Shown: piece by piece, positions 43,432-51,027 of the stretch
How positions within the stretch are numbered: the stretch's first letter is position 1
How the letters are laid out: the number at the start of each line of letters is the position of its first letter
Notes under the pieces: generated by a model
What the model saw: the letters and a program-made list of their open reading frames with translations, nothing else
The model's database searches: none
Told to the model about the DNA's origin: nothing
Assembly: GCF_018350175.1 (NCBI RefSeq)
Contig: NC_058383.1
Coordinates: forward strand, 17,484,001-17,548,000
Direction of reading: 5' to 3'
DNA length: 64,000 bases
Source: Felis catus
Lineage: Eukaryota
Program-made: the position numbers and the translations under genes

Positions 43432-43437
43432 TATAAA
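43432..43437 (+). promoter_or_regulatory. CTF2: TATA box of CTF2
   Basis: TATAAA 82 bp upstream of the ATG. Confidence 0.7.
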
Positions 43438-43513: not shown

Positions 43514-43529
43514 ATGAGCTATCTGCTAG
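43514..43529 (+). CDS. CTF2: CTF2 (cardiotrophin-2/neuropoietin) coding exon 1 (MSYLL)
   Basis: agcATG context, G|gtgagt donor, phase 1 matches exon 2. Confidence 0.85.
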
Positions 43530-45591: not shown

Positions 45592-45728
45592 CCCCCCTCT
45601 GCCTGCTGACCCTACTGCTGCTACCCCTCAGTCTTGGGGCTCCCATCTCGCCAGCTGAGCCCATCAGTCAAGCCTACAGCCTGGCCCTCTACATGCAGAA
45701 GAATACATCAACACTGCTGCAGACTTAC
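45592..45728 (+). CDS. CTF2: CTF2 exon 2: signal peptide and helix A (APLCLLTLLLLPLSLGAPISPAEPISQAYSLALYMQKNTSTLLQTY)
   Basis: gacag| acceptor, TAC|gtgagt donor; near-identical to mouse Ctf2 as remembered. Confidence 0.93.
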
Positions 45729-47202: not shown

Positions 47203-47660
47203 CTCCAGCACCAGGGCAGCCCCTTTAGCGACCCTGGTTTCTCAGCCCCTGAGCTTCAGCTCAGCAGCCTGCCTCCTGCCGCTGTCTCCTTCAAGACCTG
47301 GCATGCCCTGGATGATGGGGAGCGGCTGGGCCATGCCCAGGGGGCCTTCCTGGCCTTGACCCAGCACCTCCAGCTCGTAGGGGATGACCAGAGAGACCTG
47401 AACCCTGGCAGTCCTATCCTGCTGGCTCAGCTCGGCGCCGCAAGACTCAGGGCCCAAGGCCTGTTGGGCAACATGGCTGCAATCATGACTGCTCTGGGCC
47501 TGCCCATCCCCCGGAAGAGGACACTCTCGGTGTTGTTGCCTTTGGGGCTTCAGCCTTTGAGAGGAAATGTCGAGGCTATGTAGTGACCCGGGAATATGGC
47601 CACTGGACAGACCGAGCTGTGAGGGACTTGGCTCTGCTCAAGGCCAAATACCCTGGATAA
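47203..47660 (+). CDS. CTF2: CTF2 exon 3, with a 1-nt deletion at 47508-47512 (pseudogene or assembly error)
   Basis: LQHQGSPFSDPGFSAPEL...MTALGLPIP, then the conserved tail PEEDTLG...AFERKCRGYVVTREYGHWTDRAVRDLALLKAKYPG* continues in another frame. Confidence 0.92.
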
Positions 47661-48425: not shown

Positions 48426-48443
48426 TTTATTCTCAGGAATAAA
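48426..48443. terminator. Back-to-back poly(A) signals for CTF1 (-, 48426-48431) and CTF2 (+, 48438-48443)
   Basis: TTTATTC-TCAG-GAATAAA; first canonical hexamers noticed after each stop codon. Confidence 0.65.
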
Positions 48444-49032: not shown

Positions 49033-49500
49033 TCAGGCCGGGCCACTGGGCACCAGCTGGCCCAGGTCGCCCTCGGTTCGGCTCACCCACTCGCGGTAGA
49101 GGCCACACACGCGGAGCCCCAGAACCTTGGCAGGGAAGACGCCTGCACCGGTGGCGGCGGCGGCGGCGGCAGCGGCGGCGGCGGGCTCGGGCCGGGGCCC
49201 GCGAGTCTCGGTGCCCAGCGCGGCCAGCACGGCCTCCACCGCGGCGCCCAGGGCCCGGGCCTGGCGCGCCGCGTCCTCCAGGCGCCGCAGCAAGCGCGGC
49301 GCGCGCGGGTTCAGCTCCGCCTGGTGGCGCCGCACCACTTCGAGCAGCGGTGGCAGCGCGGTCAGCGCCGCCGCGTCCAGCCGCAGCCGCTCGGGCGCGG
49401 GCAGGCCCGCGTGGCCCGGTGCCGGGGCGCTCAGGCCGGCTACTGGCAGCCGCGGGGGCGAGAAGCCGGGCAGCCCGAAGGGGTCTCCCTGGTGCTGCAC
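49033..49500 (-). CDS. CTF1: CTF1 (cardiotrophin-1) exon 3
   Basis: cgcag| acceptor; VQHQGDPFGLPGFSPPRLP...VFPAKVLGLRVCGLYREWVSRTEGDLGQLVPSGPA*. Confidence 0.96.
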   Translation of the reverse strand: MQHQGDPFGLPGFSPPRLPVAGLSAPAPGHAGLPAPERLRLDAAALTALPPLLEVVRRHQAELNPRAPRLLRRLEDAARQARALGAAVEAVLAALGTETRGPRPEPAAAAAAAAAATGAGVFPAKVLGLRVCGLYREWVSRTEGDLGQLVPSGPA

Positions 49501-51027
49501 CTGCGGAGACACGGCAGTCAGGGGGGCCCCGCCCTTCCCCGAGAGGCGCCGCGACAGAATTCCTCCACTCTCCACTCCTCCCGCTCTCTGGGGCCTTAGT
49601 TTCCCCACCTCGCAAATGACACATTCCTCCCAACACAACTGTTGTGTTTGATACGACAACACGATCCCCCCCCCCCAAAAAAAAAGTGGGCTTTACACCA
49701 GTGCCTTTGTTTCCTCATCTCTAAAATAGAGATAACAGTATCCACTTCACAGGGTATTTCCGAGCATGGAAAAATGCTTCCAGCAGATCCTGGCCCACTG
49801 GAAGGGCACAATAAATGTTAGTTCTTTTATTAATGCCATCTTTCAGACCGGGGCGCAAATCCTGTCTCTGCCACTTGCTAGCAATGCAGTTTCATGCAAT
49901 ACCATTTCCCTTCTCTGAGTCTTACTCTTCTCATCTGTAAAATGCGGGATCAGCTCCCTGTCCTGTCTTTCTACTAAGGATTTCCTGAGAATCACACAGA
50001 GACTGCTGAAAACCGTCTGTTTTCTCTCTCTCCCCCATCCTCCACTATCTCTGCACCTGCAGGGGGCTCACTGAATAACTGTCATACAAATGAACAAATG
50101 AAAGATAAAAGAGATTTGTAATTTGTAAACATGCTACAACTGTACCATTTATCCTTTGCTGACACTTGTCTCTGGTTCAGGCACTGTTTGCTGCTTTAAA
50201 CACACTATTTCCTAATCTTTCCAATAATGGATGTGATGATTATGATGATGCTGATTTTATAAATGAGGATATTGAGGCTGCTGAGGTAAATTGACTTGCC
50301 CCAGGTCATCTATCTAGGAAAGGACAGAGATGGATTTTGAACCAATGTTCACAGAATTACAAAGCTAGTTCTCTCTCTGATTCCACTTTCATAATTGTTA
50401 CATCACTCTTTTTTCATGTTACCATTACTGTCCAAGGTCACAGCAAGTTAGCAGACCTACAGTCTTTCTGATTCAAAGCTATACCCTCCTTCCACTACAC
50501 CAGAGTAATTGGTGGAAATACCCTCCTTCCTTGGGTAGCGCCCTATGCCTAACCAAAGATGGTGGCAGATCCCCCTCCTCTGTAAAAGTCCCTTCTTGGA
50601 CTGGAATTTTTGCCCCATGTTGAAACCCCTTCTTGATCTCTCTGTATAGCACAGGTAGATGAGTTTACAACTTATCATGTTAAACTGCCTCCTTTAATAG
50701 CTGGGGAGACCAAGGCCCATGGTGGTAAGGTGACAAGATCACAGAGAGCCTAGAACCTAGGTTTCCTGACTCGCTCACTCAGTTCTCCTTACTCTCTCTG
50801 CCTCTGTCTTAATGCAGTGTGGTAGGGGAGCCTCCAAGCTGGGGCAGACACAGGGGCATTTGGGGCACAGAGAGGGGCCAGTTCCCCAATTTGCCAGCAT
50901 GGCAAATTGTGTCCCATTTTTCTGCAGCTGGGAAATGAGGGTGGAAAAATGGGTGGTCAGGAACCTCTGTGATCTGTACTTCCCCACTCCTCAGGCCTCT
51001 GGCACCCCCATCCCCATTCCCACTCAC

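What the first reader, a model, noticed from the sequence alone, without database searches (positions are those of the whole stretch)
47500..47660. CTF2/neuropoietin frameshift: independent loss in a felid, or a homopolymer error
Seen: CTF2 has a TATA box, canonical splice sites and open exons, but the C-run at 47508-47512 has 5 C where 6 are needed (ATC CCC CCG GAA). As assembled, the protein is 177 aa and ends PRKRTLSV...EAM*. It loses helix D and the FxxK motif (FERK). Adding one C gives 203 aa. Established: CTF2 is functional in mouse and a frameshifted pseudogene in human, and FxxK is the LIFR-binding site III. Inference: a real deletion would be a recent convergent loss, but the undamaged downstream frame and the homopolymer context also fit an assembly error.
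Basis: partly seen in the sequence, partly recalled or inferred. Interest (0 to 1): 0.7.

Follow-up and report, generated by a model that had tools for sequence, protein, structure and literature searches.

The report
Likely assembly slip in cat CTF2
This cat genome assembly lacks one base in a run of C's in the cytokine gene CTF2, which breaks the gene on paper, but the gap is likely a sequencing slip rather than a real gene loss, because the essential gene SRCAP nearby shows the same kind of slip and cat-type sequences with an intact frame exist.

Summary
C5 at 47508-47512 gives a 177-aa protein that loses predicted helix D (169-200) and FxxK; one more base gives 203 aa, 202 of 203 identical to lynx/lion CTF2. 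All 5 named non-Felis felid sequences listed are intact, so any loss is very recent. Evidence leans to error. (1) SRCAP, embryonic-lethal when lost in mice, has a one-base frameshift at a G-run 152 kb away in the same assembly. (2) Two unnamed contig proteins carry the window's His54, shared with the cat entry and no other named felid, yet read intact. (3) There is no other decay. Against: a UniRef cat model has the same shift (possibly the same assembly), and porpoises appear to carry a real frameshift at this run. Odds: error 0.62, private or segregating allele 0.25, fixed loss 0.10. The scan earlier noted a similar G-run slip elsewhere in this genome (e1-9826163, unchecked). The likely porpoise loss is the better lead.

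The parts
43432..43437 (+). TATA box of CTF2
   Evidence: TATAAA 82 nt upstream of the ATG; function inferred
43514..43529 (+). CTF2 coding exon 1 (ATG, start of signal peptide)
   Evidence: GTGAGT donor; translation matches P0173
45592..45728 (+). CTF2 exon 2 (signal peptide, helix A)
   Evidence: AG acceptor, GTGAGT donor, 137 nt, matches P0173
47203..47660 (+). CTF2 exon 3, coding part to the normal TAA
47209..47211 (+). His54 codon (Tyr in all named non-Felis felids); marker of the cat-type sequence
47508..47512 (+). C5 run, one base short of an open frame; frame changes at residue 155 in the predicted C-D loop
47530..47561 (+). 32-nt GT..AG stretch whose removal reproduces the UniRef cat model (PRKRTLS-RKCRG); likely an annotation bridge, not a real intron
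   Evidence: too short for a mammalian intron (own knowledge)
47556..47567 (+). FERK (FxxK, site III) codons, out of frame as assembled
   Evidence: F170 and K173 invariant in 33 of 33 aligned orthologues
47581..47583 (+). premature TAG in the as-assembled frame
48438..48443 (+). AATAAA polyadenylation signal candidate
   Evidence: function inferred
49036..49692 (-). CTF1 last coding exon, open and with its own FxxK (FPAK); tail-to-tail neighbour that supports orthology
   Evidence: ORF; gene name from own knowledge

Best explanation
The missing C is likely a residual one-base homopolymer error of this assembly, and the cat's CTF2 is likely intact. Shown: the assembly has C5; every other part of the gene is undamaged; a second one-base shortfall in a G-run breaks SRCAP 152 kb away. 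Inferred: long-read consensus calling under-counts C/G runs and polishing missed some in this GC-rich region. The real gene would then encode a 203-aa four-helix cytokine that signals through CNTFR, gp130 and LIFR like mouse neuropoietin (receptor set from the title of Derouet 2004 and own knowledge).
For: (1) Internal control. An SRCAP exon between the SNF2 and Helicase_C exons (Pfam) is split into two overlapping ORFs at a G4 run. Homologue P0203 aligns in one frame to 17,683,383 and in another after it, and P0204 and P0206 both jump frame at 17,683,384-387/396. Homozygous Srcap loss is embryonic-lethal in mice (PMC11370474, passages). This was 1 jump in 24,248 control coding bases, which predicts 0.025 such events in the 612-nt CTF2 CDS (95% range 0.0006-0.14). 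(2) P0081 and P0083 (Logan/ENA, 3 contigs in all) carry His54 like the window and the cat entry, and P0083 also has the window's intron-derived leader, yet both read PIPPEED. (3) 5 of 5 named non-Felis felid sequences (13 accessions) are intact and not flagged low quality. (4) One amino-acid difference in 203, and it is shared with the intact P0081/P0083. (5) Weak: 14 of 14 best DNA-type runs (8 studies, 2 of them possible sources) hold 0.99 of 209 sampled words and none 1.00. If rounded, that is 2-3 words missing; a one-base-longer run would remove 2.65 on average.
Against: UniRef A0ABI7XLK1_FELCA has the same PRKRTLS shift, but it may derive from this same assembly. The run does mutate in nature: porpoise-type contig proteins with a shift here sit on 18 Logan contigs, and both porpoise RefSeq models are flagged low quality. 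In HiFi human assemblies about 78% of frameshifted genes were supported as real (PMC12212083, passages). CTF2 is dispensable in humans. P0081/P0083 are unnamed and could come from another Felis species. The control rate rests on one event, and a single haplotype could in principle carry a real heterozygous SRCAP null. The missing words cannot be placed and could lie anywhere in 2 kb. No NCBI Felis catus CTF2 protein was seen, but large clusters were listed only in part (15 of 32, 15 of 30, 15 of 19, 15 of 65).
Confidence: 0.62

Rival explanations
1. A real loss-of-function allele, private or segregating in domestic cats, made by replication slippage in the C-run. The stop lies in the last exon, so the mRNA would likely escape decay and give a three-helix stub without site III that would not fold or signal.
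For: The run is mutable in other mammals (porpoise-type P0033/P0153/P0154; P0043/P0155; P0003). Humans tolerate loss (PMC2134963, PMC2864566, passages). Most frameshifts in good assemblies are real. Intact His54 proteins and missing words fit a rare allele equally well.
Against: The SRCAP slip shows that this assembly makes exactly this error nearby. No C5-type product from public contigs was found (3 of 3 exact look-ups negative; weak tests). The possible-source runs also fall short of 1.00.
Confidence: 0.25
2. A fixed, recent loss of CTF2 in the domestic cat or a Felis subclade, convergent with humans, arising after the Tyr54His change.
For: The only named Felis catus entry seen carries the shift. 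No intact named cat protein was seen. Convergent loss is plausible for this gene.
Against: Intact His54 sequences exist. There is no second lesion. No run reaches 1.00 of the words. The SRCAP control.
Confidence: 0.1
3. A real deletion rescued by splicing out a 32-nt GT..AG stretch, as the UniRef model implies.
For: The model exists and restores helix D from Arg172.
Against: 32 nt is far below the usual mammalian intron minimum (own knowledge). The product still loses Phe170, invariant in 33 of 33 orthologues.
Confidence: 0.03

Closest known systems
Felid CTF2/neuropoietin (P0172, P0173, P0174, P0184, P0149; e.g. XP_042778850.1, XP_045318063.1, XP_060505045.1)
   Same: 202 of 203 residues identical to P0173 when the tail is read in its own frame; same exon layout
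   Different: His54 instead of Tyr; one base short at codon 155 in this assembly
Human CTF2P unitary pseudogene
   Same: Same gene, broken by a frameshift
   Different: The human lesion is an 8-bp deletion, human-specific and accepted as real (PMC2134963, PMC2864566, passages); the cat lesion is 1 bp in a homopolymer and unconfirmed
Residual homopolymer indel errors of long-read assemblies
   Same: One base short in a C/G run, no other decay, and a second case in an essential gene nearby
   Different: Not proven by reads here; in HiFi human assemblies most frameshifts were real (PMC12212083)
Porpoise CTF2 (XP_032461852.1, XP_065749252.1, both LOW QUALITY PROTEIN; Logan P0033, P0153, P0154)
   Same: Frame changes at the same GLPIPP codons
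   Different: The shift goes the other way (+1 type), is seen on 18 contigs and in two species' models, and comes with several other substitutions; likely real

Membership tests
CTF2/neuropoietin orthologue (IL-6 family) | Sequence identity to named CTF2 | tested here: met
   202 of 203 to P0173; P0173 hits Pfam PRF and CNTF above cut-off; best PDB hits CLCF1 and CNTF
CTF2/neuropoietin orthologue (IL-6 family) | Four long helices with FxxK at the start of helix D | tested here: met
   Model of P0173: helices 27-55, 89-117, 122-148, 169-200, mean pLDDT 85. Met for the intact frame; the as-assembled 177-aa product lacks helix D and FxxK. FxxK as LIFR site III: PMC9601804 passages (about LIF, OSM, CT-1)
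CTF2/neuropoietin orthologue (IL-6 family) | Position next to CTF1, near FBXL19 | tested here: met
   CTF1-like and FBXL19-like ORFs in the window; names from own knowledge
CTF2/neuropoietin orthologue (IL-6 family) | Signals through CNTFR/gp130/LIFR | not testable with these tools
   Needs a cell assay
Unitary pseudogene (lineage-specific loss) | Inactivating change in the coding sequence | tested here: met
   Present in the assembly
Unitary pseudogene (lineage-specific loss) | Lesion confirmed in reads or independent individuals | tested here: inconclusive
   0 of 4 runs had a contig laid (no evidence either way); the UniRef cat model may not be independent
Unitary pseudogene (lineage-specific loss) | Fixed in the lineage | tested here: inconclusive
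Unitary pseudogene (lineage-specific loss) | No working copy elsewhere in the genome | tested here: met
   1 match in G000
Unitary pseudogene (lineage-specific loss) | Relaxed selection or further decay | tested here: not met
   No second lesion; the single substitution is shared with intact sequences. A very young loss would look the same. dN/dS was not computed (no relative's DNA held)
Homopolymer assembly error | Single-base indel inside a homopolymer | tested here: met
   C5 at 47508-47512
Homopolymer assembly error | Same error type in genes that should not tolerate it | tested here: met
   SRCAP G4 frameshift; one case
Homopolymer assembly error | Absent from the individual's own accurate reads | tested here: inconclusive
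   Nothing laid; word shares only suggestive

The most novel reading that the evidence does not exclude
The C-run at the GLPIPP codons is a slippage hotspot through which CTF2 has been knocked out repeatedly in mammals: in porpoises (likely real), in at least one unnamed lineage, and now as a young null allele in cats. That would make neuropoietin a repeatedly lost cytokine rather than a human-specific loss, and give a living animal model of its absence.
Probability: 0.33. Interest if true: 0.45.

Novelty: not a real feature. Interest (0 to 1): 0.17.

Why it matters
If it is an error, it is a warning: this assembly has one-base slips in C/G runs of coding exons, SRCAP included, so single homopolymer frameshifts called from it need read support, and the public cat CTF2 model is wrong. 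If it is real, cats would carry a natural null of a cytokine that humans lost and mice keep, which allows a direct look at what neuropoietin does. The likely porpoise frameshift suggests that loss of CTF2 is not unique to humans; I did not find this in print (searches; main texts of open papers only).

Tried and rejected
Laying public runs on the site gave no data: laid nothing, and 0 of 4 runs had a contig laid, which the tool says can be false, so this is no evidence either way. Exact look-ups of three short as-assembled frames found 0 of 3 in the collection; a weak test, since a gene caller need not call them. A search with the alternative frame across the junction gave 5 hits, none with the junction. 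A search for longer forms showed no cat representative among 41 hits. A felid-wide loss was rejected. A second copy or haplotig was not found. Camel frameshifts (P0037, P0151) are not counted as gene loss, because an intact camel copy exists (P0157, P0158). P0003 is not counted as independent support: it is one ENA contig with bat-type residues, and its named match (Desmodus, P0147) is intact. One zinc-finger array of 15 with a frame jump (17,807 kb) was left out of the error-rate control because it has several lesions and looks like a true pseudogene; counting it would double the rate. The small shares of RNA rows were not used. Derouet 2004 (PMC387333) is not held; I saw only its reference entry. 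Earlier-findings searches by words and by sequence found nothing on CTF2.

Full report
Observation. The window holds a three-exon CTF2 (neuropoietin) gene on the + strand, with TATAAA at 43432, coding exons 43514-43529, 45592-45728 and 47203 onward, and canonical splice sites. The run at 47508-47512 has five C. Spliced as assembled, the CDS is 534 nt and 177 aa. It matches felid P0173 except His54 up to residue 154, then reads RKRTLSV...EAM*. The frame from 47511 equals the last 49 residues of P0173 exactly, and one more base would give 203 aa by arithmetic. G000 has a single copy.

Consequence if real. An AlphaFold model of P0173 (33-sequence alignment, mean pLDDT 85) has long helices at 27-55, 89-117, 122-148 and 169-200. 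The shift at residue 155 lies in the C-D loop, so all of helix D would be lost. Phe170 and Lys173 are invariant in 33 of 33 aligned orthologues. FxxK at the start of helix D is the LIFR site in LIF, OSM and CT-1 (PMC9601804, passages); PMC11039321 (passages) places site 3 in the C-D loop and early helix D. The nearest solved structures are CLCF1 and CNTF. The truncated form would be a null; this is inferred, not assayed.

Relatives. Five named non-Felis felid sequences (13 accessions; names shown include Prionailurus viverrinus, Puma by its UniRef tag, Lynx pardinus, Panthera leo, P. pardus, P. onca and Leopardus geoffroyi) are intact, carry Tyr54 and are not flagged low quality. Hyena, meerkat, dog, fox, mustelid and panda entries are also intact. 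The only named Felis catus entry seen, UniRef A0ABI7XLK1, has His54 and the same PRKRTLS, then returns to frame. Removing a 32-nt GT..AG stretch (47530-47561) reproduces that model. It identifies the window as cat-type, but it may come from this same assembly and is not independent. Two unnamed contig proteins, P0081 (2 contigs, Logan and ENA) and P0083 (1 contig, Logan), have His54 and read PIPPEED intact; P0083 also has the window's own intron-derived leader. Of 14 fetched proteins with the feliform VVAFG tail, 14 are intact and only these 2 have His. So the cat-type sequence exists with an open frame, either in domestic cats or in a sister Felis species. Large clusters were listed only in part (15 of 32, 15 of 30, 15 of 19, 15 of 65), so a RefSeq cat protein may have been missed.

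Internal control. I fetched 600 kb of flanking G000 sequence. About 152 kb from the C-run, a large Pro/Ala-rich exon of an HSA-SNF2-Helicase_C gene (SRCAP by own knowledge; domains) is split into overlapping ORFs of 355 and 481 aa at a G4 run. The 3,093-aa homologue P0203 aligns in one frame up to 17,683,383 and in another after it. P0204 and P0206 both jump frame at this point. Homozygous Srcap loss kills mouse embryos (PMC11370474, passages), so this is most likely an assembly slip, though a heterozygous null cannot be excluded. Of 15 zinc-finger arrays, 14 kept one frame; the fifteenth has several lesions and was left out as a likely pseudogene. One jump in 24,248 control bases predicts 0.025 errors in the CTF2 CDS (95% range 0.0006-0.14), or about 1 in 95 C/G runs of five or more. 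By my rough estimate this is as large as or larger than the prior for a real, very young loss. An earlier unchecked note reports a G4-for-G5 frameshift in CDKN2AIPNL in this genome (e1-9826163); I did not test it.

Sequencing runs. The 14 best DNA-type runs (8 studies; 5 rows from 2 studies may be the source) all hold 0.99 of 209 sampled words of a 2-kb stretch, and none holds 1.00. If the figure is rounded, 2-3 words are missing; a one-base-longer run would remove 2.65 on average, with probability 0.49 for 2-3. This fits one window-private difference but cannot place it. Laying runs on the site gave nothing (0 of 4 runs), so the decisive test is open.

Evidence for a real allele. The same codons are frameshifted elsewhere. 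Porpoise-type contig proteins P0033, P0153 and P0154 (18 Logan contigs) read GLPIPP-RRGHS, and both Phocoena RefSeq models are flagged low quality, while dolphins, orca and baleen whales are intact. P0043 and P0155 (unnamed) have two compensating shifts, the second at this run, and a lost stop. P0003 (one ENA contig, bat-type) has the same shift as the window, while named Desmodus is intact. A duplicate camel copy is shifted beside an intact one. The human gene is lost through an 8-bp deletion (PMC2134963, PMC2864566, passages; PMC3377690 passages confirm it as a benchmark case). PMC7555810 (passages) lists Ctf2 among genes expressed in vomeronasal or olfactory tissue. In HiFi human assemblies about 78% of frameshifted genes were supported as real (PMC12212083, passages). 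The run is therefore both error-prone and likely mutation-prone.

Weighing. Error 0.62; private or segregating null allele 0.25; fixed loss in cats 0.10; splice rescue 0.03. These are judgements, not computed posteriors. Ten paper searches showed no report of CTF2 loss in cats or porpoises. They cover main texts of open papers only, and I read no supplements. As it stands the finding is most likely an artefact and scores low. The two useful by-products are the SRCAP slip, as a caution for this genome, and the likely porpoise loss of CTF2.

Noticed in passing
L015:5375-5390 minus strand (G000:C41, about 17,683,385): One-base frameshift at a G4 run in a large SRCAP exon, upstream of the Helicase_C exons; likely an assembly error.
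   Followed up: yes
P0033, P0153, P0154, P0029, P0156: Porpoise-type CTF2 is frameshifted at the same GLPIPP codons on 18 Logan contigs, and both Phocoena RefSeq models are flagged low quality; likely a real loss in porpoises, not found in the papers searched.
   Followed up: partly
P0037, P0151, P0152 versus P0157, P0158: Camels have two CTF2 copies: one intact and one frameshifted at the same motif.
   Followed up: partly
P0034, P0038, P0116, P0003, P0043, P0155: Several bat or bat-like CTF2 entries are truncated, flagged low quality or frameshifted (Rousettus, Hipposideros, Molossus, unnamed contigs), while Pteropus, Desmodus and Phyllostomus entries are intact.
   Followed up: no
L047:8800-10000 (G000:C41, about 17,806.8-17,808.0 kb), + strand: C2H2 zinc-finger exon with several frameshifts and degenerate fingers; looks like a true pseudogene.
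   Followed up: partly
P0045, P0046: Ruminant CTF2-like entries are only 50-59% identical to felid CTF2, against about 90% for most placentals; accelerated or a paralogue.
   Followed up: no
window 49036-49692, minus strand: The CTF1 last exon is open and has a poly-alanine stretch before its FPAK motif.
   Followed up: no
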